Of a stretch of DNA of 64,000 nt, positions 5,593 to 22,048 are shown one piece after another. The notes under the pieces were generated by a model. The model did no database searches, was not told the DNA's origin, and worked only from the letters and a program-made list of their open reading frames with translations. The stretch is taken from the IMG/VR virus record IMGVR_UViG_3300045988_159113, one strand, 5' to 3'. The translations under genes and the position numbers were made by a program. Origin of the DNA: a virus. How positions within the stretch are numbered: the first letter of the stretch is position 1; every line of letters starts with the position of its first letter.

Positions 5593-5595
5593 AAA

Positions 5596-6535: not shown

Positions 6536-7099
6536 TTACTTGCTTCTTAGAAACTGCCTCCTTGTCTGATATATCTCAGCACGGATTCCGTTCATTGCGC
6601 GGGTAACAGCACCCTTCCTCATCTTCTTGCCGCATTTTGCCTTCTGAACTGCCTTCTGCTCTTTCTGCTTACATACGGGACACATAGAACCACCGGCTGC
6701 ATAATATGTCTTGTAATATCCTTCGGGGCATTCACCTTTGAGACTGCGAATAAAATTCAACTTTGCCCCACGACGTGCAGACTGTACTGATGCCTAATCA
6801 ACAACTGCCTGAATCAACTGAGTAGCTGCGCCAGGCTGAGATAACTGAGCAAATGCTTCGGGATTATCATTCTCCAACTCCTCAGCTCCTGCCTCAACGA
6901 GCTCATCACTTGCAGCTATCTACTCCAGAGTCTCTGGTTGTTTGGATATAAGCTGAGCAACCTAACTGACAACGTCCTATATGCTGGTGTCGTTGCCCTA
7001 CTGCTTCTGATATCCATAGAAACCAATGATAGCCTTCTGAAGCATGGCGTCCTGCTGATCTTCCTAAGCAGCGCCGCCTTGTTCGTAATAGTTAATCAT
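6536..7099 (-). CDS. hypothetical protein with C-terminal cysteine cluster
   Basis: ATG at 7099. The N-terminal part is interrupted only by TAG (about 6). The C-terminal part is track ORF 6536..6760 (GECPEG...CPVCKQ). Confidence 0.45.
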
Positions 7100-7118
7100 A
7101 TATTAGTGTTTTATTTTA

Positions 7119-8435
7119 TTAGTTAAAAATTGCATCTCTCCCACTATTTGTTATATTGTAATTTTTGTAGAATTGATTATAGTTTCGTTGTAGTGCATTA
7201 TTATACTCTTCAGTGTCAAGCTTATCTTTACCGAATTGTTTGATAAATGCATCACGGAACTTTGCTGAGTATAATCTGTGCAATTTCATTGAACTTATGC
7301 TTCCTTTAGCATGATATCTCTATCCTTCATCTATTATTGGCTATGCTACCTATTTGCCTACATTAGCCCAGAAATTACTAATGGTTATTTGTGGCTATGG
7401 TTTAGCGTCAGCTTGCATAGACCCATCAGTTCTCCACCATCCCATGTTTCCGTTTTTGTCAAGGTATCTTCCGGTATTATAATATTTTGTGCCATCTTTA
7501 GCAGTTATTTCAGAAGTACCGTCTCCTAGAATTCTTTGACTCCATCCTTGGCCAAATATTCCGTTAAATTTTCGCATAGTCTCATTGCCAAATTTACCAT
7601 CAGCACCAGTTCCTACTAGACCTTGCCATGTAGTCAAATCATTGCCTTGCCAGTTGTATGATGGAGTCCATGCGGATCTCCGACGTGACGCATTACTCTA
7701 TGGCGCTGGCTATGCATTTACCTATGTGTTAGCCGTTTGCTGTTTCCAAGTCGGCTGCAACTTCTGAGCATATGCTGTCATAGCGCCAGGCGTATATCCT
7801 CCCTGATACTATTGAAGCATATTCTAAAAACTCTAAGAGATAGGTGTTTCTGTAGGTTTCTGCCAATTTCCATGGTCCCAATTTGCGCGAGATGCATTTT
7901 GATGTTCTGAAAAATATTCATGAACACGTCTGTTTGCATCGGCTTCAATAGTTCCAGCTTTAAAATTGTTATCACTATACATCCCAGCATTTTGTCGGCC
8001 ATTACGAATCATATCCATAGCATTGCGTCTATTAAACTGCTAGCCGCCAGAGAAATTGCTGGCCATCTGCATATTCGCGCCATTCCAAACAACAGCATCC
8101 TATCCAAGAGCACGTAAATCATTTTTAAGTCTACGCCTCTTACCAAGACCTCTATAACGGCTGCTGTTCAGATTTATAATTTTCTGATTGTTATAGAAAT
8201 CAGGATTCCTATTCTATGACTACTGATCAGCTTGCTGCTCATGGTCGTTTACTGTCCCTTGCTGCTATCCAATAGGCTTGTATGTTTCTGAACCTGTATG
8301 TTCTGGTTTCTATACTGCAGCAGGCTGCCTAGTAAACGACAAAGAAGATGGGTCAACTGTAGACCAATCAGGCATAGTATAGTTTAATGTAGTTCCGTCA
8401 TCACGATACGGTACACCCTTAAAATCTTCAGCCAT
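7119..8435 (-). CDS. hypothetical virion protein with peptidoglycan-binding-like motif
   Basis: ATG at 8435, TAA at 7119 (1317 nt). Joins track ORFs 7833..8018 and 7395..7637 through TAG codons. GADGKFGNETMRKF resembles a PG-binding repeat. Confidence 0.5.
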
Positions 8436-8436
8436 A

Positions 8437-8667
8437 TCACTTTACAAGTTCAAGGTCCTTTGTACTAAACACGCCTTCCTGCAGCTCCTGCTATGTATTG
8501 AACCATATGCACTTGATGCCCTTCAGGCTGTTTCCCTTATCTACGTTTCTTTTGAAAACATTTGTAACCTTTCCGATCACGATCATATCAGGACGATTTT
8601 GAATGTCCTATTTGACCCTTACAACCTGACCAGGAAGGAAATAAATCTTATCTTCCTCATTTAACAT
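8437..8667 (-). CDS. small protein, DUF2158-like
   Basis: ATG at 8667, TGA at 8437, 2 in-frame TAG. FLPGQVVRVK...IKCIWFN...FSTKDLELV resembles the small YodC/DUF2158 pattern. Confidence 0.4.
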
Positions 8668-8673
8668 AATTTT

Positions 8674-9267
8674 TCACTTCTTTTTATTGGACCCATTAAA
8701 ACGTTCAGTGAGTCCTGAGTTTATAACTACCAAAGCGCGTGTCTCATTTACAAGTACGAGTCCCTGCTTGAAGAATGGAACGGGCACCTCGCTGACAACC
8801 GTCCAATAGATAACGTCCCCATCCTTCACATACTTACACTCCGGACCTGCATCGACAACCTCTCCAACATGAATCATAGACTTCTCTTCCTCATATTCTC
8901 CGGTCTCATTCGATTTGTAAGTTGGAGCATATCCGCCAGTGTCAAGAATGATGCCACTGTCGGTCTTCGTGATCCTCTGGAAAGGATTCTGCGAATAAGG
9001 CTTCACCAAAACATAGTTGTAGATTGCCTTGATCTCCATCTTATCAAATTCCTCATTGAACTTTTCCGCGTATTTGCCGACTGCCTTCTCATGGTCCTCG
9101 AGCTTCTTCTGCATGTCGTCAATCTTCTGATTGATCCTTGTAGCAGCTTCTCTTTCCATAATACGATCAGCGTTCTTTCCATTTAACACAAAATGCTTGG
9201 CTGTCTCAATATTTGTAGCCACGCGTGCAAGCTTCTCATTACTATTCATTCCAATTCTCTCGTCCAT
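8674..9267 (-). CDS. GroES/Cpn10-like co-chaperonin domain protein
   Basis: Intact 197-aa ORF. The C-terminal half (YVLVKP...TDSGIILD...GEVVDAGP...VKDGDVIYW) follows the Cpn10 pattern. Confidence 0.5.
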   Translation of the reverse strand: MDERIGMNSNEKLARVATNIETAKHFVLNGKNADRIMEREAATRINQKIDDMQKKLEDHEKAVGKYAEKFNEEFDKMEIKAIYNYVLVKPYSQNPFQRITKTDSGIILDTGGYAPTYKSNETGEYEEEKSMIHVGEVVDAGPECKYVKDGDVIYWTVVSEVPVPFFKQGLVLVNETRALVVINSGLTERFNGSNKKK

Positions 9268-9287
9268 AATTCAAAAATTTTAAAACA

Positions 9288-9521
9288 TTACCATTTATTT
9301 AATTTACATTTCTCATCTTTTACTGTTATCTTACTCTCTATTATACAGCCACACTTTTTGCAAATAAATCCAAAAAGTGGTATATATAGTTTTTGATCGC
9401 ACGAACGGCAAGCCGCGTATCTCTTCCTGGAAAACTCAGGATAAATATGGAATAAGTTCTTGAAATTCCCTTCGAGAATATTCCACATTTTATGAGCGAT
9501 CATCAAAATCATATTCACCAT
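9288..9521 (-). CDS. Cys-rich small protein (paralog of 9515..9778)
   Basis: ATG at 9521 overlaps the upstream stop. CRSC...CKKCGC...C..NKW C-terminus is shared with its neighbour. Confidence 0.4.
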   Translation of the reverse strand: MVNMILMIAHKMWNILEGNFKNLFHIYPEFSRKRYAACRSCDQKLYIPLFGFICKKCGCIIESKITVKDEKCKLNKW

Positions 9522-9778
9522 TTTCCTGCAACACATTCCGCTGTCGAATTACTCCATTTAAATTTTAACATACAACCGCAACCTCTAACAAATCCTTTGC
9601 GTGCTTCAAAAGCAATATCATCATTTTCTGGATTTATCCATAGATTGCTATTACATATTCCTCCATGACTTGAGGAAAATATTGGGCACTTCTCACATAT
9701 CTGTTGCCTAATTTCGATGTAATCTTTGTCTAGTCCAAGCTTCTTACTTACATCTTCATCAAGAAATTTCTCTATCAT
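9515..9778 (-). CDS. Cys-rich small protein
   Basis: Intact 87-aa ORF. CEKCP...C...GCGC...C..GKW. Confidence 0.5.
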   Translation of the reverse strand: MIEKFLDEDVSKKLGLDKDYIEIRQQICEKCPIFSSSHGGICNSNLWINPENDDIAFEARKGFVRGCGCMLKFKWSNSTAECVAGKW

Positions 9779-9781
9779 AAA

Positions 9782-10609
9782 TCAAAAAATTAAAGGTTTC
9801 ATTTTCTGCATAGTGTCTTCATGTTTTAGCTTCTTCTGATAATATGAAATCATATTCTCCACTTCATCCTTCAGATAGTCACACTTGTACATAGTACCAG
9901 CACCTGTTGTTGGATCAATGTGATAGATTATGAGTTCCTTGACTTTTAGCTCTGGTTTTATTTTTGTCAACATCCAGGCATAAGTAGACACTTGTAGTTG
10001 GTACTCGTTAAAATTACAATTGTCAAATTTGTTTAATGGATACAGCATCCGTTGTGTTGTCCTTGTCTGCTGATTATAGGACGCAGCTTTTTTGTTAATC
10101 TTACTGTTAGTTTTGAAGTCAATGACAATGATATCATTGAGATCTTTAACTAGAAGGTCAACTTTACCATTTAGTCGAAAATCACCGTCCTCGTACCTGA
10201 TAGAAAATTCAGAATACGCGCCGCGAGGTAAGTCCAAATCTGAGTAGTCATTCATAAATTCAAACTTACCTCCCAGCCCGAATCGTTCCAGGGTCTGTTT
10301 GCCGCCCTTGAAGGAATCCTCCAGCTGTTTGTGGATGATAGTTCCACGGTCACAGGCGTCTTGTTTGCTTTTCTGCCACTGATCAAGTATATTCTGCTTT
10401 TCCCGATTGAAGTCTGTTTCATTTATATCATACAACATCAACAGGTCCGTGTCTATCTTATGTTTAGAAAGTACCGATTTTTTTTCAACCTACCATCTGT
10501 CTTTTGGTATCAATCTCTCGAGTGCTTTTACTCCACTCCAAAACTCCTTATCGAAGGGCGCTACAAATGAGTGAATTAAATCGGTTACATTTATATTATG
10601 TGTAGACAT
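9782..10609 (-). CDS. PD-(D/E)XK (Cas4/RecB-like) nuclease
   Basis: ATG at 10609, one in-frame TAG, then track ORF 9782..10441. Motifs GTIIHKQLE, GKVDLLV...IVIDFKT and LQVSTYAWML. Confidence 0.55.
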
Positions 10610-10645
10610 TTTTCCGTTCTCCATTTAAACATTCAACATTATAAT

Positions 10646-10879
10646 TTAATCTTTGGATGACTTACTCTGAAACTCTAACAGTTTAGATTTGTATGAGTAA
10701 TCCATACCAATTAAGGAACCAGCGAAAGTACACGTTTCACCAAATGCTATAAGTACCGAAGAGTGAATCACGCCCATTGGTGGAACTGTAAATCCAGCGA
10801 CAAGAAGCAACAGTCCAGCGGTCAATATTACAGAAGCCATGCGGAGCTGAAATCTTAGCTTCCTTTCTTTCTGATTCAT
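10646..10879 (-). CDS. small membrane protein (two hydrophobic helices)
   Basis: Intact 77-aa ORF with two hydrophobic stretches. Confidence 0.45.
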   Translation of the reverse strand: MNQKERKLRFQLRMASVILTAGLLLLVAGFTVPPMGVIHSSVLIAFGETCTFAGSLIGMDYSYKSKLLEFQSKSSKD

Positions 10880-10935
10880 ATGAAACTTAATTTTTAAAAA
10901 TTGACATATATCTTGATTGGTTTATATTCTACGCA

Positions 10936-10956
10936 ATAATACTATTATTGTTACAT
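10936..10956. promoter_or_regulatory. near-palindromic divergent late promoter box
   Basis: CAATAATACTATTATTGTTAC reads TAnTATTATTG on both strands. It lies between divergent genes starting at 10879 (-) and 10972 (+). Confidence 0.45.
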
Positions 10957-10971
10957 AAAATAGCAGCAATT

Positions 10972-11610
10972 ATGGTACATCTCTTAAAAAAGGGATCCGG
11001 CATTCATATAAAAAAATCACATGAGGGAAGATTTACGGAATATTGCGGAGGCAATGTGACAGAAGAATGCATACGGAGAGGGAAAAACTCCCCGGATCCA
11101 AAAATACGAAAACAGGCAGTCTTTGCATAGAATGCCAGAAAATTCAAACACCAAGACGGCGGCTCCATTTATGGAGCACCTTAGATATAGACAAATGGAA
11201 ATCTCTCGCAGCAATGGAAATAGCAGCAAGAGATGGCTGCGCAAAATTTCAACCAAAGCATGGAGTGGGAAAAACAGCTTGATGAAATGAAGCGCATGCA
11301 AGAATCACAGGCTCTTGGTAAAAGCATAGGAAATACTGTTGGCTCTTTAGTTGGTACCGGTATGCAAGCAATTGCACAAAATATCAGAGAAAGAAGAGCT
11401 GGTAGCGAAGAAGGAGAAGTGAAAGGAAATTCTCAACAGCCAACAGTACCATAGGCTACGACATCATATCAAATGCCATAGCTTCCAACATCATTGCAAG
11501 GAATTAACAACATGATGAGAAATCCTTTCGCAATTCCACAACAAATGCCTACTATGATGAACGGTGGCAATATAGAACGCTTAATCAGAAAAATAGACAG
11601 ACATGGATGA
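10972..11610 (+). CDS. hypothetical Q-rich protein
   Basis: ATG at 10972. Track ORFs 10948..11130 and 11233..11454 are in the same frame, joined by TAG. Ends at TGA 11608-11610. Confidence 0.5.
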
Positions 11611-12868
11611 ATTGTTCTCTACATATAAGGCCGTTGAGCCGATGCTAGTATAGGAAGAAATAGAAATCCCAGATTTAAATACAACATCAAGATATGATAC
11701 TTTTCTTGAAACATTAAATAGGTACAGAGAAGCATAGGGTCAAAAATAGCCAGAAGCATAGAAACAAGATGATAACCAAAACTGGTTCACTAATACAAAA
11801 ATAAGACAGACGACACCTTCTGTCTCAAACCTCGCAACAGCTATTGACTATACAACAAAAGACCTATAGACGATGTTGAATGAATAGGGGCTTGATAAAT
11901 ATATAAGAATAACAAGTGGATTCCGAGATCATAATGTAGGAAAAGCTGGCAACAGATCAAATCATAGAAAGAAAAACAAACACGGACATTCTATGGCTTA
12001 TGATATAGCTCCAGCATAGGGAGAAACTTTTGATTCTATATATTAGAAAATGAAGGAGAACCCTGCAATGTAGCAATGGTTATCTCAAAATGGTTTTAAT
12101 ATAAACGACGAAACAGATGCTGCAACATTAAGACGGACAGGAGGAACTGGTGCTCATTTTCATATTGGACCTGATAAGTTTAATATTAGAAAAGGATAGT
12201 CTGGTTTTGATACGTCAAATTTGTTTTCGGCATATAAAGCTGTAGAGTTACCTATTAAGCCAATCATTAAACCGGTAATTCCAAACATTGAATATAATAG
12301 TACAGGTATGCCAGATATATATATTGGTAGCAACACGCCAACTTAGCAAAGCGAATAGAAAGCTGATGATGACCAGTCGTGGTTCTCAAATACAAAACTA
12401 AGAAAAACGCCAACTGCTCCTGTAGTATTACCAAAGTAGAAAGAGAATGAGGCTGCAATAAATAGTCCAACTTTTGATTCTGATTTTCAAAAATTCGGAA
12501 CGTCAAAAATATTCTCTGATCACAAGAATTTCTGGAAACGTCTTGCATTTTCCGAATCAAGCCTAAATTCATAGGCTTCAAATAAAAGCGGAGCTTTCGG
12601 ATATTTTCAGATAATGCCACAGTCTAGAACTGGGGTTGACGTAGCATCTCAATTTAAAGATGCGGAAAAATTAATGACATCACACATGTCATTAATAAAC
12701 GACGAAGATCGCAAACTAGCACAACAAAAAGGAATAACAGAAGAAGGACTGATGGCTGGCGTTTGGCTAGGAGGTCCTGGAGGAGTAAAAAAAGCACTGA
12801 GAAGTCAGGGAAACGCAAAAGACTCGAATGGTACATCAGTGATGAGTTACATGAAAAAGTTTTCGTAA
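11603..12868 (+). CDS. cell-wall hydrolase: LAS-type zinc peptidase domain plus lytic transglycosylase domain
   Basis: ATG at 11603 (ATGGATGA overlap), TAA at 12868, 1266 nt with 14 in-frame TAG. SGFRDHN...HGHSMAYD...AHFHIG (H-x6-D ... H-x-H). ESSLNS[TAG]ASNKSGAFGYFQIMPQS is an SLT-like signature with a TAG inside it. Confidence 0.6.
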
Positions 12869-12939
12869 TAATAGATAAAACGTTTTATGAAATTTCTGAG
12901 ACAAACCCAGGAAGAAGCTTATAAATAAAATAAAAAAAA

Positions 12940-12972
12940 GTCCGAGAAATAAAACTCTCGGACTTTTTTTTT
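12940..12972. terminator. bidirectional intrinsic terminator
   Basis: GTCCGAGA / TCTCGGAC stem with an A-run before and a T9 run after, between convergent genes. Confidence 0.7.
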
Positions 12973-12992
12973 ATGTGGCAAATCTACAATCA

Positions 12993-14045
12993 TTATTTTA
13001 CATACTATCTTTCCAACGTTTTACCAGCATCAATTCTTGGTTTCTATAATACCGGAATACTGATCTCATTTCCTTTTGTATCATGAACGACTTTCTCACC
13101 AACTTGCTTCCATCCATATTCTGTTTTGAATCTATTAAGTCCATGAACTCCTCCGGGGCTTAGATTTCCATATGTAGATAAAAATTCACCTTCCGGAAAA
13201 TCTGCAGCATAGGTATCAAAAAGAAACTTCTTCTCATTTGGGCTTAACATCTGTCTCCCATCTACTCCGTGGAATGTATCAGCTGTCTTAAAATGAACGC
13301 TATGATATCCTGGCTCAAGATCATCAACCCTTTCGAAGAATGAAGGTTTTCCTTCTAGCCTGTAACGAGTCGCAGGATTCCATCCTTGATAATTACGCCA
13401 TACCTTAACCTCTGGTCCCTCTTTTATTACTCTCGTTGCTTCATATGGATACAAGGCTTGACTTACGCTTTCTGTAGTCTGTGCTCCATGCTATATTCCA
13501 GTCTCTGCTGCTTTAGCTTCTGCTTCTAAAACTTTAGAATTTATTTTTATTGCCCCATCAGCAGCTCTAACAACAGGAGCAGCTACCATAGCAACATCAA
13601 CTGCAGACTTTAATATTAGAGGATATGTGACTTTTGCAAGATCACTAGCTGATGAGTTCGGATCGTCCCATACCGCGTTTGCATGATCAACTAAACCATC
13701 AGCTCCTGAAAAAGTGTTGTATAATCCAGTCGCACCACTAGCAAATGCCATAGGACCAGGTGCAAAAGTCCAACCAAGCATATTGGCAATACCGACAAAT
13801 GGCTTGCTTCCTCTCTCCATAGCAGCGTTGAAATAACGAGCACCACGCGCCGCTTCAATCTTACGCCTCTCAGCATCAGATAACTCAGCACCCTACGGTA
13901 TCATATCACTCGATGTAGCTGGTGCTCCTATACCTGCACCTTCAGGTGTCACGGTTATCCATTCGAAATTCCCAACTCTTCCAAGTGGATTATCTGGCGT
14001 ACGTTCAACCTACTCGTATTTTATAGATTCCTTTTTCTTACTCAT
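12993..14045 (-). CDS. hypothetical structural protein
   Basis: ATG at 14045. Track ORFs 13491..13820 and 13044..13454 are in the same frame. Continues through TAG 13044 and 13005 to TAA 12993, about 20 nt before the terminator. Confidence 0.5.
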
Positions 14046-14061
14046 TGCAAAAATATTTATT

Positions 14062-14080
14062 TTGCAATTATAATATAAAA
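14062..14080 (-). promoter_or_regulatory. late promoter box
   Basis: Minus strand reads TATATTATAATTGCAAA about 17 nt upstream of ATG 14045. Same box as at 15526, 32577 and 33218. Confidence 0.45.
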
Positions 14081-14184
14081 ACCCGATGCTCTTTTCTAAG
14101 AAAGAACACCGGGCCGAATTAATTATTTAATCGTGAATGAGTTTCTGTTTTAAAGCCCGATGCTTTTTTCTAAAAACACCAGGC
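14077..14184 (-). terminator. two tandem intrinsic terminator hairpins (related sequences)
   Basis: Hairpins at 14082..14113 and 14155..14184. Mismatches on the plus strand (A-C, C-A) become G-U wobbles on the minus-strand RNA. The first is followed by U5 on the minus strand. Confidence 0.55.
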
Positions 14185-14208
14185 CGAAAGTTTTCATTAT
14201 CAATTTTT

Positions 14209-14400
14209 TCACTTATAGTATAAAACCTCATGTCCTGTAAGGCTCAGGGTTTCATATATCAACTTGATCGTTTCGGCATTATCATCCTTGGAGATCAATA
14301 TATCCTTTGGAATCATTATCCTATCGTAATGATTCAGAAACTCAACATCTGGCTACTTAGCCTGTTCAATGTCAAGTGTTACAGTTCTGATGTTTCCCAT
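14209..14400 (-). CDS. small hypothetical protein (63 aa)
   Basis: ATG at 14400 (TAATG overlap), one in-frame TAG, TGA at 14209. Confidence 0.35.
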
Positions 14401-14567
14401 TATCGTACACTTAAAGCGTTCAGATCATCTTGATAGTCAAGCCACCACTGTCTGTTTGTCCAGCCATTAGCGCGAGCCATCTCGTCAATCTCGGTTGCAC
14501 GATCAATAACACGACGCGCCTATCTCTTCAGCAACCACTCAATAAACATATAGATTTTACCTTTCAT
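14400..14567 (-). CDS. small hypothetical protein (55 aa)
   Basis: ATG at 14567 (ATGA overlap), one in-frame TAG, TAA at 14400. Confidence 0.35.
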
Positions 14568-14713
14568 GATACAATCATTGTGTTCGATTCGTACTTTCCA
14601 CTATTTACAAACTTCGTGGCCTCATCTTCCGTGTCAAATATTCTGACTTGTGTTACAAAATTCTCACCATCGAAAATCTTGCGATACACCTTGTTCTTGT
14701 CCTGGGTATACAT
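14564..14713 (-). CDS. small hypothetical protein (49 aa)
   Basis: ATG at 14713 (TAATG overlap), TGA at 14564. Confidence 0.35.
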   Translation of the reverse strand: MYTQDKNKVYRKIFDGENFVTQVRIFDTEDEATKFVNSGKYESNTMIVS

Positions 14714-15027
14714 TAACATTCACATTTTATACATTTAACAAACTTGAAATCATCATGAGAACCAGGAAGATGGCTCAGATCAGGGCGAGTAGATACAATC
14801 GTATATACCCCATTAAAAAAATAGTATAACTCAACCGTCCTCCCTACAACGTCCTCCTTACGTTGCCCGTTTGAGTTAAGCTCACAAAAAGCCTTCTCTA
14901 AGTCATCTTCCTTTATGTTGTCTCTTATGATTTCTATATCATTCTCATCAAGCTTTAATTTCTTCAGCTTCTTTTTCAAATCGCGACACTGAAACAATTT
15001 CTCGCGATATTTGAATATAGTTCCCAT
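14713..15027 (-). CDS. hypothetical protein
   Basis: Intact 104-aa ORF ending in TAA. Confidence 0.5.
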   Translation of the reverse strand: MGTIFKYREKLFQCRDLKKKLKKLKLDENDIEIIRDNIKEDDLEKAFCELNSNGQRKEDVVGRTVELYYFFNGVYTIVSTRPDLSHLPGSHDDFKFVKCIKCEC

Positions 15028-15045
15028 TCATTCGCTCATTACTAG

Positions 15046-15121
15046 TAGGGACGCCAGGATTCGAACCCGGTCCAAGAGGGTTAGAGCCTCCTGTGCAATG
15101 AACCACATACACCACATCCCT
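15046..15121 (-). tRNA. amber suppressor tRNA, anticodon CUA (reads UAG)
   Basis: Minus strand folds as a cloverleaf: acceptor AGGGATG/CGTCCCT, D stem GTGT/GCAC, anticodon stem GGAGG/CCTCT with loop CT-CTA-AC, T arm CCGGG-TTCGAAT-CCTGG, discriminator A. Confidence 0.85.
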
Positions 15122-15130
15122 ATTTAGTAA

Positions 15131-15502
15131 TCACATTCTCATATTTTCAAGATTATGAATTTTCTTTCCTATCACCGCATTCACACACTGCTTGAACTCA
15201 TTGATGCCATGACGAACGGCACCATAGTCTTCAGTAGAATCACAAAGCTCTGCAAGCTTTCTAACACCTCCATCAGTCGTCTTGTTCATAAGATCACAAG
15301 CCTCAACAAAAACATCATCATCAAGTCTTGCTATCTGCTCACGAAATTCACTGATGAACTCAGGAACACTTGGCTCCTCGGTGATCTTTACCATGTAGCT
15401 GTTGTCATCAAAATCATACTCAACAACACGATCACCACTTCTAAACTTTCCCTTCGGGTTCTTCTACGCCGCACTAAGCAGCTAACTTATCATATCCTGC
15501 AT
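15131..15502 (-). CDS. hypothetical protein
   Basis: ATG at 15502, two in-frame TAG, then track ORF 15131..15394 (372 nt). Confidence 0.45.
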
Positions 15503-15525
15503 ATTGTCATTGTTTATTGGTTACA

Positions 15526-15545
15526 TTGCAATCATAATATAAAAA
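15526..15545 (-). promoter_or_regulatory. late promoter box
   Basis: Minus strand reads TATATTATGATTGCAAT upstream of ATG 15502. Confidence 0.4.
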
Positions 15546-15601
15546 ATGCCAAAACCCAAATTTTTTGTGTTAATTTAGGTTAAGGCATATGTTAAAAAGT
15601 G

Positions 15602-15904
15602 TCACAGCGAATAAAGTATCGCTCCGATCATCATAACTACGGAATTCAAAACTCCACCTAGCGTTGTAAACAATACGTCGATCTTATCTGCTCGATAGTC
15701 TACCGCTTCTTTCACAATACCAGCAACAGCAGCAACAACAACTCCACCAAGGGAGACAGCAACGACAAGCCAACCAGTCAACCCTTCCTACATGGATAGG
15801 ATGTTTGTTATAATCGATGCTATCACGTAACCAAGAGATACATGTTCCAAAAGGTTTGTGTGCTCTTCAAAGAAAGAGCGCAACCTTTTCTTTAACTTAC
15901 TCAT
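15602..15904 (-). CDS. membrane protein (about 100 aa)
   Basis: ATG at 15904, one in-frame TAG, TGA at 15602. Hydrophobic stretches LGYVIASIITNIL, WLVVAVSLGGVVVAAVAGIV and LGGVLNSVVMMIGAILY. Confidence 0.45.
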
Positions 15905-15910
15905 TATTTA

Positions 15911-17710
15911 TTAAATTATAGTCCAACCTTTCGCGAGAGCTGCGGCTTTCTATTCGTCGCTAATCGCCCACATCGCGTTTTTCTTTAATGTTGCAGATCT
16001 TACAAGGCTTGTGCTCGCATCATCATCGCCTTTTTCTATGGTCAGATCTGTCAAGTTATCAATCAAATATGCTATACTGTCAGCATCCAAAGCTGGAAGC
16101 CAAGACGAGAAATCCCAATTGCCATGATTCAATCGCTAGATTCTTACATCTGTCAGCTTATCGCAACCATTGAATGCATTTTTTATGTTAATCCCCTCGG
16201 GCTTGACATATCGCATATCAAGCACAGGACCTATCTTGACAAGGTTATTGCAAGACTCAAAAGCCTATGGCATAAATTCTACAATAAGCAAATTATCATC
16301 AGCAAATCTATCCGTGCCATATTGCGGTATCTCTGTGATCTTGAAGCAATAATCACAGAACCACCCGATGTTCGTACTCCTGTATGCTCGCGTTTCATCA
16401 TTCACATACGCAGCGCTCCAATGAATACTCGGAAGCTCCAAGAGATTATTGCACTGTTCAAAAGCTGCTGATAGATCTCTTGCCCATGCTACCTTGTTCA
16501 TATGGATATGGCGCACCTCATGCATCCCTCCAAACATTCTATGCATAGATGATACTGCAGAAGTGTTGTTGAATGTTAATTCGTCAATATTGGTGCCACT
16601 CCAAGCATAACCGCCAGCCATGAATTCGATATCAAAATTGAAGGTCCAGTGGCCTTTCATGTCTGTATTATCCTTAAACCACGCATCGTCTGGATTCGCA
16701 TCTCCGGTAGTAAAAACTGCATAATTACTGAATACCTTAGTCTTACAATACTCTTTGAGCTACTACACAAATGCATCATTCCACATTCTGCCGGTAAACT
16801 GGACATATTCGACAGTCTCTACCTTACTCTCCGTATTATAGGAATACTTAACCAATCCATCCATGTTATCCAAAACGGGCATATAGGATCCGTTGCATTT
16901 GTGGATGATACTCTTGACGCCAGTGGACCAATCTCTAACTACAGTATCAACGATACCGTGATAGATAAGATTATCAAGATCCTTGACTCTATGATATACA
17001 AGATTCTCACCGATGTATGCATTATAGCACTCGCTCTTCGTTTTGTCAATAGGCGGTGTGAATTGCTTAGTGTGATAATCTAACCCGTCAACACTAACGA
17101 GCACATTTTGCATTTCAAGTCTCACCTAGTCTATGGTTCTTATCTTTGGCTTTATAACAACTGCTATATGATTACTGCCTACTCTATGTATAGTGACCGT
17201 GCGCTTGTCCTGGCTTATATCTGCAATACTTCCATGGCTCGTATCAACAATAAACTCAGAATCATCAAAGCGGCCATCTAAGAAATTTATAATGATGGGA
17301 TGATCACCGAAATCAAGGCATGCGTTGTCTTTATCGTCCTTAAAGTTGCTATCATTACCCCATAAGGTGATAGCTTCACACCATGGCTCATTTTTCCAGC
17401 CATTAGCCGCGAAGTTCTTGGTCATCCCTTTTGTTATATTCTTATTGCGACCGTCTTGAATATAACCCCAATAATGTGCTCCATTATTGAGATCTTTAAG
17501 AGCACCACCAGGAACACCTAAATCCCAAGGCCACCAGTAAATCCAATCGTTATTATAACAAGGAGCAAACCATAAACCGCGAACGTAATATCCGCCAGCA
17601 TCAGATGCGTATTTATACCAACTCCATAACGCATCACCCTTAGGTTTAGGTTCTGGATAAGAGAATCTCAAATGAACGACATCCTGGTTTCCTATTTTTA
17701 ACCCACTCAT
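15911..17710 (-). CDS. tail fiber / receptor-binding candidate with BspA-like leucine-rich repeats
   Basis: Track ORFs 17126..17710, 16763..17125, 16265..16660 and 15950..16132 share one frame and are joined only by TAG, including tandem TAG-TAG at 16760-16765. Repeats FEQCNNLLELPSI, FESCNNLVKIGPV and FNGCDKLTDVRI. Runs through TAG 15950 to TAA 15911. Confidence 0.55.
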
Positions 17711-17850
17711 TTGATAGCATATAAAACATTATCACTTTTTGGATCTAGTGCATCATACTCATCCTAAGAAAGTATTTGCACCTTGTCGCGGGCTGTCTAA
17801 TCACAAAGATCGTATACCTAGCCCTTTATGGTTATTTTGCTTATTTCCAT
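17707..17850 (-). CDS. small protein (47 aa) with fiber-N-terminus-like EYDAL...LYAI motif
   Basis: ATG at 17850, 3 in-frame TAG, TGA at 17707 overlapping the next ATG (ATGA). Confidence 0.35.
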
Positions 17851-17870
17851 AATGTAAAAAATTAATTCAG

Positions 17871-17894
17871 CAACAATTATAGTATTATTGTGTA
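17871..17894. promoter_or_regulatory. near-palindromic divergent late promoter box
   Basis: CAACAATTATAGTATTATTGTGTA gives TAGTATTATTG on plus and TACTATAATTG on minus. It lies between starts 17850 (-) and 17919 (+). Confidence 0.45.
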
Positions 17895-17918
17895 TAATTT
17901 TATAAATTTATATTAAAT

Positions 17919-19601
17919 ATGGCAAACGAATATAGAGCGAAATCATTCGCAGATGCTTTCAGACAAGCACGGAGAGATATCGGTAGTGGGGGGCAAGCGG
18001 TTTGGATCCGACCAAACGGCACACGCATGGTATTCAACACAAACCTCAAAGAAGAGATACCTGTAAATCAAACCGTTTATTCTCCTCTTCTTTCTAGCGA
18101 AGATGAAAGATTGGCGGAAAGAAGGTACAAAGAAGCTTTGGAATCATCAAGAAGAGCTTTGGCTTCAGAAATCGGTATTAATTTAGTACAAGGCAAAAAA
18201 GTGCCAACAAAAATGATACCATAGCTTGATGTACAAAACAAAGAGGTTGGAATATACCAAATTAATCCAAACGCAAGCTCCGAGGAAACAAGATGGATCA
18301 AAACACTTCCATAGATAGATGTGATTGCACAACGTACACATCACAAAATGAGAAAAAATTCCCAAACAGGAGAGCTTGAGTCTGCATAGGAGAATTTTTA
18401 CCCAGTTAAACCTGATTATGAAATTGGAAAAGGAAATAGTGTTCATTATAATTTCAACACAGGTGAATATGAGATGATAGATAAAAACGGAGAAATTCTC
18501 GCAACATCACCAGATGGTTCTGTTCTATCTGATCCTTCACTCTGGACTCAATCTCATAATGGAAGAAATGGAGACATCGAATAGTCAAAATAGACATTCG
18601 AATAGCAGAAAGCAGCAGAATAGATGGCCAACATGAGAAGAGACGAAGAAAATCACACAATCAATAGCCCATTACATATTCTTACAGATGAAAACGGGAA
18701 TATAGTTGTAGATAAAAATGGCAAACCTATATATAACGGATAGCTTACTACAGATCAAGTAGTAGATGGAATGAATTATGGCAAACAAATTTTCGTAGAT
18801 GCTGTTTAGAATTTTGGGCTCGATGGAGTCAATCACGCCATATTAGGCGGACTCAAAATGGCAACAGATGGAGATTATACATCAGACGATTATCTGAACG
18901 GATTCTTAGCATCCAAAGATCATGTAGGAGGAGCAGGAGACTTTTTCGAGGTAGAAGGACCAAAATCAAGATTCGCTTTGAATCTTATAAACCCAACATC
19001 ATTATTCACACTCGGGGCTACAACAAAGTTCAAATTGCCAGAGATGACTGTCGTAACAACTAAAGGATAGCCAATTCGCCTCAGTGTTCCAAATGCGCCG
19101 GCATCAATGTATAGAAGAGGAATGCAAGCGAATGAAGGAATGGGAACAATAACAAGAAATGTTGGACGAGGAGGACAAAAGTCTTGGGTCTAGCATGGAG
19201 GCAAACATGTTGCTGGTACAGGTTCACATATCGAGGTAATACCAACATAGAGTACAGGATTAATGTACACTCCTGGCGAAATTAGTATGCGACCACTCAC
19301 AACAATGACATATGATCTCTATCCAAAGAGGATATGGGAAACAAAACCAATCATACCAGCACTTAACGTGGAATATGAAGGTGGGCCAGAATCAACAGGC
19401 TATCAGTATGAAAGAATGTTAGGCAATCCTGATGAAGTAAACTCTTCGGCAGCACCAGATGTAGCAATGCCAGGAAATGTTACTGTAAACGGATCAAATG
19501 ACAAGATAAACAGAGGAAGATCAAACGGAAGAAGACTCCTCAAGAGAACAAAAGCAAGAAAATCAAGATAGGAAACAGGAAATATCGACATAAGTAATTA
19601 A
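17919..19601 (+). CDS. hypothetical virion protein (560 aa)
   Basis: Track ORFs 17919..18224, 18858..19070 and 19263..19571 share one frame. About 13 in-frame TAG. TAA at 19599-19601. Confidence 0.5.
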
Positions 19602-19603
19602 TT

Positions 19604-20131
19604 ATGTTATCAGTAGAAGAAAGATTGAGACGAAAAGACGAGCTCATCAAAAATGGCTATAAAGTAGAACGAAACGCTAGCTGGGGACCAAACCTCAATA
19701 AGATGTATATGTCTATGAAAGCCAAAACTCCAAAAAAGAAATCCTGGGCACAAAGCGTAAAAGATGAAGGTCTAATCTCTGGAACGATGGATAAAATGGG
19801 AATAACAAATCCATACGCAAAGGTAGCAGCAGAATTTACTCCGTTAATACCAGGAATCGGAAACTATATCTCAGCAGCAAATGCAATTACTGATTTAGGA
19901 CGCGGACATTTCAAAGATGCTGCGTGGAATGCATTGTATGCACTACCTGTAGCAGGAAATGTAATGAAAGGATTAGGAATGGGAGCAAAAGCTCTGAAAG
20001 GCTTGAACGCAGTTGGAAGAGTAGGCGGCATAGCACAATGGGGAGATGTAATCGGACAGACAGCAGCACCAACAATCAAAACAATAAGGGACGCATGGAA
20101 CGACCCACAAACGGAAGAATATTATGGCTAA
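19604..20131 (+). CDS. hypothetical protein, Gly/Ala-rich C-terminal half
   Basis: Intact 175-aa ORF with no TAG. Confidence 0.55.
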   Translation: MLSVEERLRRKDELIKNGYKVERNASWGPNLNKMYMSMKAKTPKKKSWAQSVKDEGLISGTMDKMGITNPYAKVAAEFTPLIPGIGNYISAANAITDLGRGHFKDAAWNALYALPVAGNVMKGLGMGAKALKGLNAVGRVGGIAQWGDVIGQTAAPTIKTIRDAWNDPQTEEYYG

Positions 20132-21026
20132 TAAAGCACAGACAACAAAAAAACTGCTTACATCAAAAGCAGGAAAGAAAGGAATCCAATGGACAGTTGG
20201 ATAGGTGAAGAAAGGAATCACCTGGCTTGGAGGAGGACAAGGTAAAGTAAATCGGAAAGCAGAATAGTATGTCGAAAAACAAGCTGAATCACTAAAGAAA
20301 GCAAAATCAGCATAGAGTAAGGCAACACGCAATCTGAATAAATCAATAGAAAGCGTGACTGGAACAAAATGGTCAAGCCGAAATGGATATCCTCAAATGA
20401 CAGGAGAATTGGCAGAAATGAAAGCTGCAAGAGATTTGCTTGCTAGAAATACAGCAAGAGAAGCAAAAGCATTCAAGAAAATGTCCGGTCTTGCAAGACA
20501 AAAAGCAGAAGACGAAGTACTTAGATCTGGACTCACACGTGCAGGGATCGGAGGCGCAGCACTACTTGCCGGTATACCTGTATATAACGCTCTGACAGAT
20601 GAACCAGAAATGTATGATGCTAGTAATCTGCAAGCAATTGAACCAGAAGTGATTGAACCCGAAACATTACCTGGATCAGGAGTAGAAAGCCTCAGATATT
20701 ACGCAAGAGATACAGACCCATACTGGAATAATGGGAACCCTATCATACAAAATTCAGATGGCACACTCTTCATAAATGGACAACAGTTCGACGATAGAGA
20801 TAAAGCCGCAGCAGCTGCAGCAGGATTCGATAATGTGTTCGATTATAAAGCGGCAAGAGCAGGACTGAGCAGCAGAGAAGAAGTTGCGGAATTACAACGG
20901 CAACTAGGATTGAAACCCGATGGACTGTTTGGAATAAATACAGAAAAAGCATACTACGATTATATGAGATCAAATCCACAAGAAGTGGCAGATCGATATA
21001 TATCTGACGGATGGATACAAGTGTAA
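20124..21026 (+). CDS. hypothetical protein with C-terminal peptidoglycan-binding-like motif
   Basis: ATG at 20124 overlaps the previous stop. 3 in-frame TAG, then track ORF 20355..21026. LQRQLGLKPDGLFGINTEKAY resembles PG_binding_1. Confidence 0.5.
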
Positions 21027-21030
21027 AAAT

Positions 21031-21060
21031 AAAAGGAGACCAGAAATGGCCTCCTTTTTT
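21031..21060. terminator. intrinsic terminator between convergent genes
   Basis: AAAAGGAGACC-AGAAA-TGGCCTCCTTTTTTT. Confidence 0.6.
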
Positions 21061-21079
21061 TATGCCCCCCCCCTGGGGT

Positions 21080-22021
21080 TTATTTACGAAAAATATTTCC
21101 TCCCCTCTTCTAATATAAAACAAACGGCTGTAAAAATTCGACTTGACCAGACTATCCAATTCTAGCACTTCCAGGATAAATCCGCTTGTTCCAAACATCT
21201 ACAAACGCAGCCTTCTACTAAGGACTAACAGCAGCCTTCCACATGTCATATAAATCCTTATTATGAACAGCCGTATTGTTTAGCTCAGTGAAAGCATTTC
21301 TCGAAAATCTTAGTGCATTACCATCTCTAGCACCCTGTCTGACAATAGCAGCATAACTGTCAGGGCTTAAACCAGATTTGTGAAGACCCTTGTCCGCCAC
21401 ATCTTCCAATAAGACTTTCACAGCACCACGATGAGAACCCTGGTTCTTCATGAAACTACCCAATGGAGCAGATGCAAAATCTCCGGATAAATAAGTACCA
21501 GGACGTACAATCTCACGAATAGTAGACCAAAAAGTACGCATGTCTTCCTTCGGAATGACATTCCCCAACTCATCTAAAACCTTACCAGTGTCCTGCTTAT
21601 ACTCAACACCAGGAGGAGTCAAAATGACATTCATCGTACCGTTCTCATATGGAGTAGCTGATAAAGTGCCCCAACCAGCCTTTCCACCATTAGATGGAGT
21701 AACACCATAACCAGGTAATACCTTACCACTAGAAGGAAGAAATACTTTCTTCCCATCCGGCATTGTTATCAAACCATCAAGAGTACGCTTCGGGCCAGAT
21801 TGAATCATATGCCTAACACCAGGAATATCACCAGGCTTCGCAATATCACGCCAAACATAACGCTTGCCATCAAATAAAAACTTGTCTGCCTTAGACTAAG
21901 TAGAAACCCATTTCTCATAATCCTGCAAAGCAGCACGCTGAAATTTGTTTAAAGAGCCATAAGCTCCCTTAGATAAACCCAAAATCTCACGAAGAGAGCG
22001 AGAAACTATTTTCGAATTCAT
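21080..22021 (-). CDS. hypothetical protein
   Basis: ATG at 22021, one TAG, then track ORF 21218..21808. The standard-code stop is a tandem TAG-TAG (21215-21220). The frame stays open to TAA 21080, next to the terminator. Confidence 0.45.
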
Positions 22022-22028
22022 TTTTTTT

Positions 22029-22048
22029 CGCAATTTTAGTATTTATTT
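22029..22048 (-). promoter_or_regulatory. late promoter box (degenerate)
   Basis: Minus strand reads AAATACTAAAATTGCGAAAA just upstream of ATG 22021. Confidence 0.3.

What the first reader, a model, noticed from the sequence alone, without database searches (positions are those of the whole stretch)
15046..15121. Amber-suppressor tRNA (anticodon CUA) embedded in the recoded late operon
The segment forms a complete cloverleaf on the minus strand with anticodon loop CT-CTA-AC. It lies in the same orientation as, and between, late genes that themselves contain TAG (15131..15502 upstream has two). The suppressor is therefore co-located with its client genes. Production of the first suppressor molecules must either precede translation of those genes or use a separate promoter. 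The charged amino acid cannot be read from the sequence. The acceptor pair is A1-U72 with discriminator A, whereas the phage tRNA-Gln(UUG) at 33092 has U1-A72.
Basis: seen in the sequence. Interest (0 to 1): 0.8.

Follow-up and report, generated by a model that had tools for sequence, protein, structure and literature searches.

The report
Phage amber-suppressor tRNA, crAss-like lineage
This is a real tRNA gene that reads the stop codon UAG, almost certainly as glutamine, so that a large crAss-like gut phage can translate its UAG-rich virion genes; the strategy is already well documented, though this copy has an unusual acceptor stem and D-loop.

Summary
A 76-nt tRNA with anticodon CUA lies at 15046-15121 on the minus strand (ARAGORN; Rfam RF00005 47 bits against a threshold of 29). 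The window comes from a distant crAss-like phage, probably of the 'Zeta' type, whose relatives sit on 143-222 kb contigs.

The structural and packaging block (1-22 kb) carries 112 in-frame TAG codons in 20 of 22 ORFs. The 22-64 kb block carries almost none.

A codon-level comparison with 32 standard-code relatives shows TAG means glutamine. The window's TAGs fall on 6 of 31 conserved Gln columns, 0 of 46 Glu and 0 of 51 Lys (p about 1e-7).

The tRNA sits 9 nt after a TAG-bearing gene in a tight co-directional gene chain. This position is syntenic in relatives with only 58% portal identity.

From D-stem to T-arm it is homologous to the tRNA-Gln-derived suppressors of other crAss-like phages. 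Its acceptor stem (AGGGAUG/CGUCCCU) and 12-nt D-loop are remodelled, and this form is confined to a narrow clade.

Recoding with phage suppressor tRNAs is published (Yutin 2021, Borges 2021, Peters 2022). This is a new member of a known kind, of modest interest.

The parts
15046..15121 (-). Amber-suppressor tRNA gene of 76 nt up to discriminator A73. No CCA is encoded; the next bases are C-U-A-G.
   Evidence: ARAGORN. Rfam RF00005, 47 bits. Cloverleaf as minimum-free-energy fold. Consensus structure with compensatory pairs. Identical in 3 IMG/VR contigs, 7 metagenome contigs and the ENA locus L345. A compensatory T-stem variant occurs in L342.
15082..15084 (-). Anticodon CUA (tRNA positions 34-36; linear positions 38-40 because of the enlarged D-loop).
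   Evidence: ARAGORN places the anticodon at position 38. The Rfam alignment and the alignment with crAss-like suppressors place the same triplet.
15093..15112 (-). D-arm: stem GUGU/GCAC, shared with the Gln-type suppressors, enclosing an unusually long 12-nt loop AUGUGGUUCAUU. RNAfold instead predicts an extended 7-bp bulged stem with a 5-nt loop.
   Evidence: (9 residues in the Rfam D-loop insert against 4 in the consensus). An exact-match search finds this arm only in the window's clade.
15131..15502 (-). Upstream ORF of 123 aa with two TAGs near the N-terminus. Its TGA stop lies 9 nt before the tRNA 5' end. Function unknown.
   Evidence: Homologs sit immediately upstream of the suppressor in L066/L075 (3-4 TAGs across L066, L075 and L043) and in L342/L345.
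15602..17850 (-). Co-directional genes further upstream: 47 aa (3 TAG), 599 aa (6 TAG) and a 100-aa membrane-like protein (1 TAG). Together with 15131-15502, 12 TAG codons lie upstream of the tRNA on the same strand.
14209..15027 (-). Four small overlapping co-directional ORFs directly downstream: 104 aa and 51 aa without TAG, then 55 aa and 63 aa with one TAG each. The first ATG lies 18 nt after the tRNA.
   Evidence: A homolog of 14400-14567 lies downstream of the suppressor in L066/L075.
14080..14115 (-). Terminator-like hairpin (15 pairs plus a T-run). This is the likely 3' end of the transcription unit that holds the tRNA.
   Evidence: Pattern match only.
1..22042 (.). TAG-recoded structural and packaging block: portal, split TerL, PD-(D/E)XK exonuclease, transglycosylase and others. 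It holds 112 in-frame TAGs in 20 of 22 ORFs (TAG 112, CAA 115, CAG 113).
32600..33164 (+). Ordinary tRNA cluster in the standard-code block: Lys(UUU), Leu(UAA), Gln(UUG). The Gln tRNA has the acceptor UGCCCUA/UAGGGCA and A73, identical to the suppressors of related phages.

Best explanation
The gene encodes a functional amber-suppressor tRNA(CUA). During infection it is charged with glutamine, most likely by the host glutaminyl-tRNA synthetase acting through C34/U35 and the weak 1-72 pair. It inserts Gln at the more than 110 in-frame UAG codons of the phage's structural, packaging and lysis-type genes (genetic code 15). It is transcribed as part of the minus-strand gene chain from about 17.85 to 14.1 kb, excised by RNase P and 3'-end processing, and given its CCA end by a CCA-adding enzyme. 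As it accumulates, translation of the late genes becomes possible. The standard-code block at 22-64 kb can be translated with or without it. SHOWN: the tRNA, its anticodon, its structural conservation, its conserved position, the regional recoding, and that TAG corresponds to Gln. INFERRED: which enzyme charges it, co-transcription and processing, and expression timing.
For: The tRNA is detected by two independent methods. Its cloverleaf is kept through compensatory changes across homologs. It is the only CUA tRNA in the window.

The late block holds 112 in-frame TAGs in 20 of 22 ORFs, including portal and TerL. In the early block, 47 of 51 ORFs end in TAA or TGA, and the four that end in TAG have a backup stop 2-16 codons later.

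The test that TAG means Gln is not circular, because it uses true CAA/CAG codons in standard-code relatives. TAG occurs in at least one recoded relative at 46 of 51 Gln-majority portal columns, against at most 33% for any other residue. The window's own TAGs fall on 6 of 31 columns that are at least 90% Gln, 0 of 46 Glu, 0 of 51 Lys, 0 of 51 Asp, 0 of 55 Tyr and 0 of 15 Trp. Fisher p is 1e-7 against all other residues and 0.003 against Glu. Gln also gives the best mean BLOSUM62 score.

From D-stem to T-arm the tRNA is 85-93% identical to crAss-like suppressors that RefSeq annotates as tRNA-Gln.

The position is syntenic. In L066/L075 (portal 58% identical) a Gln-type suppressor sits between homologs of the same two flanking genes, on the same strand as exonuclease-TerL-portal.

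Only 9 nt separate the upstream stop codon from the tRNA, and 18 nt separate the tRNA from the next ATG, so there is no room for a dedicated promoter at the gene itself.

The literature reports TAG-to-Gln recoding of late genes with phage suppressor tRNAs in crAss-like phages, confirmed by metaproteomics.
Against: The acceptor stem is not that of tRNA-Gln. It is A1-U72 / G3-C70 / G4-C69, whereas the phage's own tRNA-Gln and 43 of 46 sibling suppressors have a Gln-type acceptor such as U1-A72 / C3-G70 / C4-G69. The same acceptor sequence occurs in tRNAs of other isotypes. Gln charging therefore rests on the codon analysis, not on tRNA identity elements.

The 12-nt D-loop is unusual, and the fold's z-score against shuffled sequences is only -1.1.

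Only 64 kb of a genome of about 195 kb is visible, so a second suppressor elsewhere cannot be excluded.

No expression, processing or aminoacylation data exist. Promoter scans found nothing informative.
Confidence: 0.8

Rival explanations
1. The tRNA is functional but inserts an amino acid other than Gln. Candidates are Lys (U35 plus A73 resemble LysRS determinants), Glu (through a non-discriminating GluRS, with the A1-U72 pair and large D-loop blocking amidation) or Val (the acceptor resembles Bacteroidales tRNA-Val).
For: The acceptor stem and D-loop are not of the Gln type. The acceptor 3' strand plus A73 is identical, and the 5' strand matches at 5 of 7 positions, to Bacteroidales tRNA-Val(CAC). 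Glu is the second-best residue at the window's TAG columns (mean BLOSUM62 1.25 against 1.76 for Gln), and 8 of 31 TAG columns have a Glu or Asp majority. From memory of the literature: E. coli amber suppressors are often mischarged with Lys or Gln, and GatCAB uses U1-A72 and D-loop size as determinants.
Against: At strongly conserved columns the window puts TAG only on Gln (6 of 31). It never does so on Glu (0 of 46), Lys (0 of 51), Asp (0 of 51) or Val (0 of 21). Five TAG sites are 100% Gln in all standard-code relatives with a residue aligned there (6 to 32 of them, depending on the column). The acceptor sequence is not isotype-specific: an identical AGGGAUG/CGUCCCU-A73 stem occurs in a tRNA(CAU), and near-identical stems occur in Pro, Ile, Leu and Arg tRNAs. 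ValRS depends on A35/C36, which are absent here (established knowledge).
Confidence: 0.07
2. This copy is a decaying or redundant tRNA, and UAG is decoded by another suppressor encoded outside the window or by a host factor.
For: The D-loop is aberrant and the acceptor is non-Gln. Published surveys detect suppressors in only about 40% of TAG-recoded phages, so other decoding routes are assumed to exist. About two thirds of the genome is not visible.
Against: The sequence is identical in at least 10 independent contigs. A diverged relative shows a compensatory stem change. All 20 consensus pairs are intact. The score is well above the Rfam threshold. The syntenic slot holds a CUA suppressor across clades with only 58% portal identity. 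The anticodon-arm/T-arm pattern search found one suppressor per contig in the window's clade.
Confidence: 0.05
3. The tRNA's main role is offensive. It causes read-through of host UAG stop codons to cripple host or defence proteins, and decoding of phage genes is secondary.
For: This has been proposed in the literature for crAss-like phages. Some Zeta phages keep CUA suppressors without any in-frame TAG.
Against: In this phage, 112 in-frame TAGs in essential genes make decoding indispensable. Placement inside the late block points to late expression, which would be too late to be a good anti-defence weapon. The two roles are not mutually exclusive.
Confidence: 0.05
4. It is a pyrrolysine tRNA, which is the label ARAGORN gives it.
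For: ARAGORN prints 'tRNA-Pyl' for any cta anticodon.
Against: The tRNA has a canonical UUCGAAU T-loop, GG in a large D-loop, two nucleotides between the acceptor and D stems, and a 4-5 nt variable region. These are the opposite of the tRNA-Pyl hallmarks, as recalled from established knowledge. The TAG columns correspond to Gln. No aminoacyl-tRNA synthetase domain appeared among the 20 early-block ORFs scanned.
Confidence: 0.01

Closest known systems
tRNA-Gln-derived amber suppressors of crAss-like phages (for example KNV47_gt01 of phage cr53_1, KNV53_gt01 of cr7_1, and those of the Zeta group)
   Same: They share the CUA anticodon. The anticodon stem-loop GGAGG-CUCUAAC-CCUCU is identical to the cr53_1 and MT836720 suppressors. 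The D-stem (GUGU/GCAC) is the same, and the variable region and T-arm are near-identical. They occur in the same biological setting: Crassvirales phages with TAG-to-Gln recoded late genes. In the nearest Gln-type clade the genomic slot is the same.
   Different: The acceptor stem is AGGGAUG/CGUCCCU rather than UGCCCUA/U(A/G)GGGC(A/U). Pairs 1-72, 3-70 and 4-69 are flipped, and pairs 5-68 and 7-66 are replaced on both strands. The D-loop is 12 nt rather than 7-9 nt. No CCA is encoded. This form is restricted to a narrow clade: 3 IMG/VR contigs, 7 metagenome contigs and the divergent L342.
E. coli amber suppressors charged by GlnRS (supE, which is tRNA-Gln(CUA), and su+7, which is tRNA-Trp(CUA)). 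This comparison is from established knowledge and was not tested here.
   Same: A CUA anticodon provides C34/U35. The window tRNA combines this with a weak 1-72 pair, G2-C71, G3-C70 and G10. That is the classical E. coli GlnRS identity set, and it also allows non-Gln bodies such as tRNA-Trp to be glutaminylated.
   Different: The discriminator is A73 rather than G73, although the phage's own tRNA-Gln also has A73. The tRNA is encoded by a phage and serves a programmed recoding rather than rescue of nonsense mutations.
'Code-change modules' and the early-to-late code-switch model of Borges et al.
   Same: A suppressor tRNA is placed next to the recoded structural and lysis genes, and a standard-code-compatible replication/early block lies elsewhere.
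   Different: In the Jade-phage module the suppressor, aaRS and release factor are in standard code upstream of the lysis cassette. Here the tRNA stands alone, with no aaRS or RF found among the ORFs scanned. It lies downstream of 12 TAG codons in a co-directional chain of closely packed genes.

Membership tests
tRNA (Rfam RF00005) | Covariance-model score at or above the gathering threshold over the full model | tested here: met
   47.0 bits against 29, model positions 1-71 of 71. Independently called by ARAGORN.
tRNA (Rfam RF00005) | Four-arm cloverleaf maintained by compensatory substitutions among homologs | tested here: met
   13 of 20 consensus pairs show changes on both sides and none is broken in the window tRNA. 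L342 has G52-C62 changed to A52-U62.
Amber-suppressor tRNA | Triplet CUA at positions 34-36 of a 7-nt anticodon loop with U33 and a purine at 37 | tested here: met
   The loop is CU-CUA-AC. The register is the same in 46 homologous suppressors.
Phage code-15 (TAG to Gln) recoding system | In-frame TAG in essential, conserved phage genes, with TAA/TGA used as stops | tested here: met
   112 in-frame TAGs in 20 of 22 late-block ORFs, including portal (12) and TerL (12); every ORF whose end lies inside the window stops at TAA or TGA (the portal ORF runs off the window edge).
Phage code-15 (TAG to Gln) recoding system | TAG positions correspond to glutamine in standard-code homologs | tested here: met
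   Window TAGs fall on 6 of 31 conserved Gln columns against 2 of 697 other conserved columns, p = 1e-7. TAG occurs at 46 of 51 Gln-majority portal columns.
Phage code-15 (TAG to Gln) recoding system | Gln physically incorporated at UAG | not testable with these tools
   Shown by metaproteomics for two other crAss-like phages (Peters 2022, listed), not for this one.
tRNA-Gln-derived crAss suppressor subfamily | Sequence homology of the D-stem, anticodon arm, variable region and T-arm | tested here: met
   85-93% identity over tRNA positions of about 26-65. The anticodon arm is identical to cr53_1 and MT836720.
tRNA-Gln-derived crAss suppressor subfamily | tRNA-Gln-type acceptor stem (UGCCCUA-like 5' strand; U1-A72 or U1.U72) and a 7-9 nt D-loop | tested here: not met
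   The window has AGGGAUG/CGUCCCU with A1-U72 and a 12-nt D-loop. 43 of 46 siblings have the Gln-type stem.
tRNA-Pyl | Small D-loop without G18G19, no canonical T-psi-C loop, one nucleotide between acceptor and D stems, 3-nt variable loop, and an accompanying pylS gene | tested here: not met
   The tRNA has a UUCGAAU T-loop, GG in a large D-loop, U8-G9, and a 4-5 nt variable region. No aaRS domain was found among the ORFs scanned. The feature list is from established knowledge.

The most novel reading that the evidence does not exclude
The remodelled acceptor stem and enlarged D-loop may be adaptive rather than drift. They might make the suppressor invisible to a host tRNA-targeting defence or quality-control enzyme, or tune its charging by the host GlnRS or GatCAB. 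The conserved placement of the tRNA directly downstream of TAG-bearing genes on the same strand may also create a self-reinforcing switch. Before the suppressor accumulates, ribosomes stall or terminate at UAG and Rho-type polarity limits transcription into the tRNA. Once some tRNA is made, read-through relieves polarity and tRNA output rises, giving a sharp commitment to late protein synthesis.
Probability: 0.1. Interest if true: 0.6.

Novelty: new member of a known kind. Interest (0 to 1): 0.27.

Why it matters
It adds one well-checked example to the established picture that large gut crAss-like phages switch the infected cell to genetic code 15 with their own suppressor tRNA. Two practical points follow. 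Annotators must translate 1-22 kb of this window with TAG read as Gln, or portal, TerL and most virion genes appear fragmented. A Gln-inserting suppressor also does not need a tRNA-Gln acceptor stem, which bears on how host GlnRS is recruited and on isotype prediction for phage suppressors. The syntenic placement of the suppressor inside the recoded operon across divergent relatives would be a useful constraint on models of how the code switch is timed.

Tried and rejected
- Megablast of 11-20 kb against GenBank phages found no match, so the phage was placed by portal tblastn instead.
- phAss-1-type phages were considered as the source and rejected: the window's portal and terminase match crAss-like portal/TerL families and crAss-like genomes instead, and the phAss-1 paper links those phages to Bacillota bacteria, not Bacteroidota.
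- The first portal-homolog alignment showed Gln at TAG columns. I set it aside as possibly circular, because the database proteins may have been called with code 15. I replaced it with DNA-level analysis.
- I considered a chimera with a host tRNA-Val. The acceptor resembles Bacteroidales tRNA-Val(CAC). The same or near-identical stem also occurs in Met/Ile(CAU), Pro, Ile, Leu, Arg and Glu tRNAs, so it carries no isotype information and the idea was dropped.
- I considered TAG meaning Glu, through loss of GatCAB determinants. It was rejected on 0 of 46 conserved Glu columns against 6 of 31 conserved Gln columns.
- Sigma-70-type and Bacteroides-type (TTTG...TAnnTTTG) promoter scans gave nothing near the tRNA and no excess over shuffled sequence.
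- A search for intermediate tRNA forms found no tRNA within 10 kb of the portal in relatives with 70-81% portal identity (L340, L341), and none near the 46-47% homologs of the neighbouring gene (L343, L344).
- The standard-code relative MT835470 (117 kb) has no tRNA at all.
- The contig names were not found in the supplements held for Yutin 2021.
- A Pfam scan of 20 early-block ORFs found no aaRS, release factor or tRNA-modification enzyme.
- Rfam found nothing in the insert that splits TerL.

Full report
**1. The observation**

ARAGORN finds four tRNAs in the window. One has anticodon cta at 15045..15121 on the minus strand. The other three form a plus-strand cluster: Lys(UUU), Leu(UAA) and Gln(UUG) at 32.6-33.2 kb.

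Rfam's tRNA model matches 15121..15046 end to end at 47.0 bits, against a gathering score of 29 (E 6.6e-7). The only irregularity is a 9-nt insert in the D-loop where the consensus has 4.

Reading the sequence directly gives:
- acceptor AGGGAUG/CGUCCCU (A1-U72, G2-C71, G3-C70, G4-C69, A5-U68, U6.G67, G7-C66)
- U8 and G9
- D-stem GUGU/GCAC with a 12-nt loop AUGUGGUUCAUU
- anticodon stem GGAGG/CCUCU with loop CU-CUA-AC
- variable region UGGA
- T-arm CCGGG-UUCGAAU-CCUGG
- discriminator A73, with no encoded CCA

The minimum-free-energy fold is a cloverleaf of -26.3 kcal/mol, with an extended bulged D-stem. The energy is not exceptional against shuffled sequence (z = -1.1). Every factual statement in the finding about the tRNA is correct, including the U1-A72/A73 of the tRNA-Gln(UUG) at 33092.

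**2. What the window is**

Opening TAG changes the ORF landscape only in 1-22 kb. There, long ORFs carry 1-16 in-frame TAGs. From about 24 to 64 kb, mostly plus-strand ORFs carry none or one.

PHROGs identifies a portal (1-2070, minus strand), a large terminase in two pieces (5595-4606 and 4447-3113), a PD-(D/E)XK exonuclease and a transglycosylase-like protein.

Portal tblastn places the phage among Crassvirales at about 23% identity. Three unannotated human-gut 'Bacteriophage sp.' records match at 55-66%. Protein-database relatives at 62-97% identity sit on contigs of up to 222 kb. Contigs that carry the identical tRNA are 143-197 kb long. This size and gene content fit the 'Zeta' crAss-like group of Yutin et al. 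(145-192 kb; TAG, TGA or standard code on neighbouring branches). I could not confirm group membership by name.

In the curated late block, 20 of 22 ORFs contain TAG. There are 112 TAG codons, 115 CAA and 113 CAG, and every ORF whose end lies inside the window stops at TAA or TGA (the portal ORF runs off the window edge). In the other block, 47 of 51 ORFs of at least 100 aa end in TAA or TGA. The four that end in TAG meet a TAA or TGA 2-16 codons later. That block can therefore be read under either code.

**3. What TAG means**

A first alignment with 120 database portal proteins showed Gln at many TAG columns. Those proteins may themselves have been called with code 15, so I repeated the test at the DNA level.

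Of 82 related portal genes (80 fetched from IMG/VR plus two GenBank records), 33 have no in-frame stop at all. The other 49 have 5-36 TAGs, and none has in-frame TGA or TAA.

I used the 32 distinct standard-code genes as reference, where Gln is encoded by real CAA or CAG codons.
- 46 of the 51 Gln-majority columns carry TAG in at least one recoded relative (90%). The figure is at most 33% for any other amino acid.
- For the window's own 31 TAG sites with standard-code homologs (portal, both TerL parts, three further genes), Gln is the majority residue at 10 sites and the only residue at five. Gln also gives the highest mean BLOSUM62 score: 1.76, against 1.25 for Glu and 0.66 for Lys.
- Restricting to columns at least 90% conserved in at least 20 standard-code relatives, the window has TAG at 6 of 31 Gln columns. 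It has TAG at 0 of 46 Glu, 0 of 51 Lys, 0 of 51 Asp, 0 of 55 Tyr, 0 of 15 Trp, 0 of 80 Leu and 0 of 27 Ser columns, and at one Gly and one Arg column.
- Fisher p is 1e-7 for Gln against all other residues, 0.003 against Glu and 0.002 against Lys.

TAG therefore stands for glutamine in this phage. This matches the published prediction and the metaproteomic proof for other crAss-like phages.

**4. Relationship of the tRNA to known suppressors**

A blastn search of the tRNA against GenBank phages hits tRNAs that RefSeq annotates as tRNA-Gln in Crassvirales genomes, among them cr7_1, cr53_1, cr60_1 and cr124_1. ARAGORN shows that the four hits I fetched (cr7_1, cr53_1 and two unannotated gut contigs) have the anticodon CUA.

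The shared part runs from the D-stem to the T-arm. The anticodon stem-loop is identical to that of cr53_1 and MT836720.

Closer relatives of the window phage, with 57-58% portal identity and 28-36 TAGs in the portal, carry a 73-nt CUA tRNA. Its acceptor, UGCCCUA/UAGGGCA plus A73, is identical to that of the window's own tRNA-Gln(UUG). These are plainly tRNA-Gln with a changed anticodon.

Among 46 IMG/VR suppressors that share the exact anticodon-arm/T-arm pattern, 43 have such Gln-type acceptors, often with a U1.U72 mismatch. Only the three contigs of the window's clade have AGGGAUG/CGUCCCU and the long D-loop. Seven human-gut metagenome contigs carry the identical gene. A relative whose neighbouring protein is 72% identical (L342) has the same acceptor and D-arm, with a compensatory G52-C62 to A52-U62 change.

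Across this whole set the cloverleaf is preserved. 13 of 20 pairs show double changes. Five acceptor pairs differ on both strands between the two types and a sixth on one side, and all remain paired.

The window tRNA is thus a structurally intact, divergent member of the crAss Gln-type suppressor lineage, with a replaced acceptor stem and a 4-5 nt D-loop insertion.

**5. Can the acceptor stem say who charges it?**

I searched one genome per bacterial and archaeal species (GTDB representatives) for the T-loop plus the acceptor 3' strand plus A73. Among Bacteroidales and Prevotella MAGs this belongs to tRNA-Val(CAC), whose 5' strand is AGGGGCG. That briefly suggested a Val chimera.

The same search in viral contigs removed the idea. 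It found an identical AGGGAUG/CGUCCCU-A73 stem on a tRNA(CAU), and near-identical stems on Pro, Ile, Val, Leu, Arg and Glu tRNAs. The stem is generic and carries no isotype information.

What can be said rests on established E. coli work and was not tested here. A weak 1-72 pair, G2-C71, G3-C70, G10 and C34/U35 make up the classical GlnRS recognition set. Non-Gln bodies with a CUA anticodon, such as su+7, are glutaminylated. A73 is also the discriminator of the phage's own tRNA-Gln.

Charging by the host GlnRS is therefore plausible, but it is an inference. The Gln assignment itself rests on section 3.

**6. Genomic setting and likely mode of expression**

On the minus strand the genes form a tight chain:
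- 17850-17707, 47 aa, 3 TAG
- 17710-15911, 599 aa, 6 TAG
- 15904-15602, 100 aa, membrane-like, 1 TAG
- a 99-nt spacer
- 15502-15131, 123 aa, 2 TAG
- 9 nt
- the tRNA
- 18 nt
- 15027-14713, 104 aa, no TAG
- three overlapping small ORFs down to 14209

A terminator-like hairpin with a T-run follows at 14115-14080. Another follows the next gene at 12971-12932.

The arrangement is conserved. In L066, L075 and L043 the Gln-type suppressor follows a homolog of the 123-aa gene (3-4 TAGs) and a 46-aa ORF (1 TAG) by 4-5 nt. It precedes TAG-free small ORFs, including a homolog of 14400-14567 in L066 and L075. All of these are on the same strand as exonuclease, TerL and portal. In L342 and L345 the layout matches the window.

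With 9 nt upstream there is no room for a private promoter at the gene. Consensus scans for sigma-70-type and Bacteroides-type promoters were uninformative.

The simplest reading is co-transcription with the surrounding late genes, followed by RNase P and 3'-end processing and CCA addition. The tRNA can be released from the same transcripts whose translation it later enables. The only possible coupling is Rho-type polarity, which I list as a speculative feedback mechanism.

Timing ('late') is inferred from gene content and from the published model for recoded phages. It was not measured.

**7. Comparison with what is known, and novelty**

These points are all published:
- Stop-codon reassignment in phages.
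- Its concentration in late, structural and lysis genes of crAss-like phages.
- Phage-encoded CUA and UCA suppressors, and their origin from tRNA-Gln by anticodon mutation.
- Mass-spectrometric proof of TAG-to-Gln decoding.

The sources are Yutin 2021, Borges 2021, Peters 2022 and the 2025 Zeta-group paper.

The finding is therefore a correct identification of a known kind of element. Three details are specific here and, as far as I could see, not described:
- A Gln-inserting suppressor whose acceptor stem and D-loop are no longer of the Gln type, confined to a narrow clade.
- The syntenic conservation of the suppressor slot inside the recoded operon, directly downstream of TAG-bearing genes, across clades with 58% portal identity.
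- Reliance on a single visible suppressor gene for a codon that makes up one third of all Gln codons in the late block.

These are modest refinements. I rate the finding a new member of a known kind, with interest of about 0.27.

**8. Limits**

- Only 64 kb of a genome of about 195 kb is visible, so a second suppressor, an aaRS, a release factor or a CCA-adding enzyme could lie outside the window.
- Twenty early-block ORFs scanned with Pfam showed none of these.
- The relatives that carry this tRNA type are nearly identical in the tRNA, so covariation within the type rests on a single compensatory pair.
- Whether the two TAGs of the upstream 123-aa ORF are translated rests on two synonymous substitutions and on conserved ORF length in relatives.

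Noticed in passing
window 4448-4605 (minus strand), between ORFs 5595-4606 and 4447-3113: The large terminase is split by an insert of about 160 nt with stops in all three frames, whereas it is contiguous in both standard-code and recoded relatives. An AAGGAG-N2-ATG motif precedes the C-terminal (nuclease) ORF. This could be a genuinely two-piece TerL or an unrecognised small intron. Rfam has no match at E <= 1.
   Followed up: partly
L062:103-192 and L063:303-391 (IMG/VR 3300031992_000733 and 3300031760_000869): Related TAG-recoded phages carry 89-90 nt tRNA(CUA) genes. They have a Gln-type body plus an extra 16-nt hairpin right after the anticodon stem. This looks like a long variable arm or an intron-like insert in a Gln-type suppressor.
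   Followed up: partly
window 47927-61255 (+), also 35412-39975 (+): About a dozen consecutive plus-strand ORFs of 260-385 aa, of which the eight scanned have no Pfam hit, look like a tandem paralog array. Upstream of them lie several hexapeptide / beta-solenoid (YdcK-type) repeat proteins. All are free of in-frame TAG.
   Followed up: partly
window 22200-64000: The non-recoded block avoids TAG as a terminator. 47 of 51 ORFs end in TAA or TGA. The four TAG-ended ORFs (29217-29519, 48753-49640, 57277-58236, 59380-59697) have a backup TAA or TGA 2-16 codons downstream. Their products would therefore be only slightly extended once the suppressor is active.
   Followed up: yes
L006 (MT835539.1) 10827-11854, 15866-16939, 17367-18465: A TAG-recoded relative has inserts of about 1 kb interrupting the exonuclease and, at two places, the TerL coding sequence. 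This fits the intron and intein density reported for Zeta-group phages.
   Followed up: no
L005+L013+L014 (MT835470.1, 117 kb): A relative with 55% portal identity uses the standard code (no in-frame stop in the portal), and ARAGORN detects no tRNA gene in any of its 117 kb. The code state thus switches within this lineage, as the literature reports.
   Followed up: yes
window 30951-31730 (-): This is one of the few minus-strand genes in the otherwise plus-strand block. It encodes a winged-helix / DnaD-N-like DNA-binding protein just upstream of the Lys/Leu/Gln tRNA cluster, and could be a regulator or a replication-initiation factor.
   Followed up: no
L148 (Vicinamibacteria MAG, contig CBDFGD010000002.1), match at 623-644 (-): A bacterial chromosome carries a long-variable-arm (Leu-like body) tRNA with anticodon CUA. 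It was found incidentally in the acceptor-stem search.
   Followed up: no
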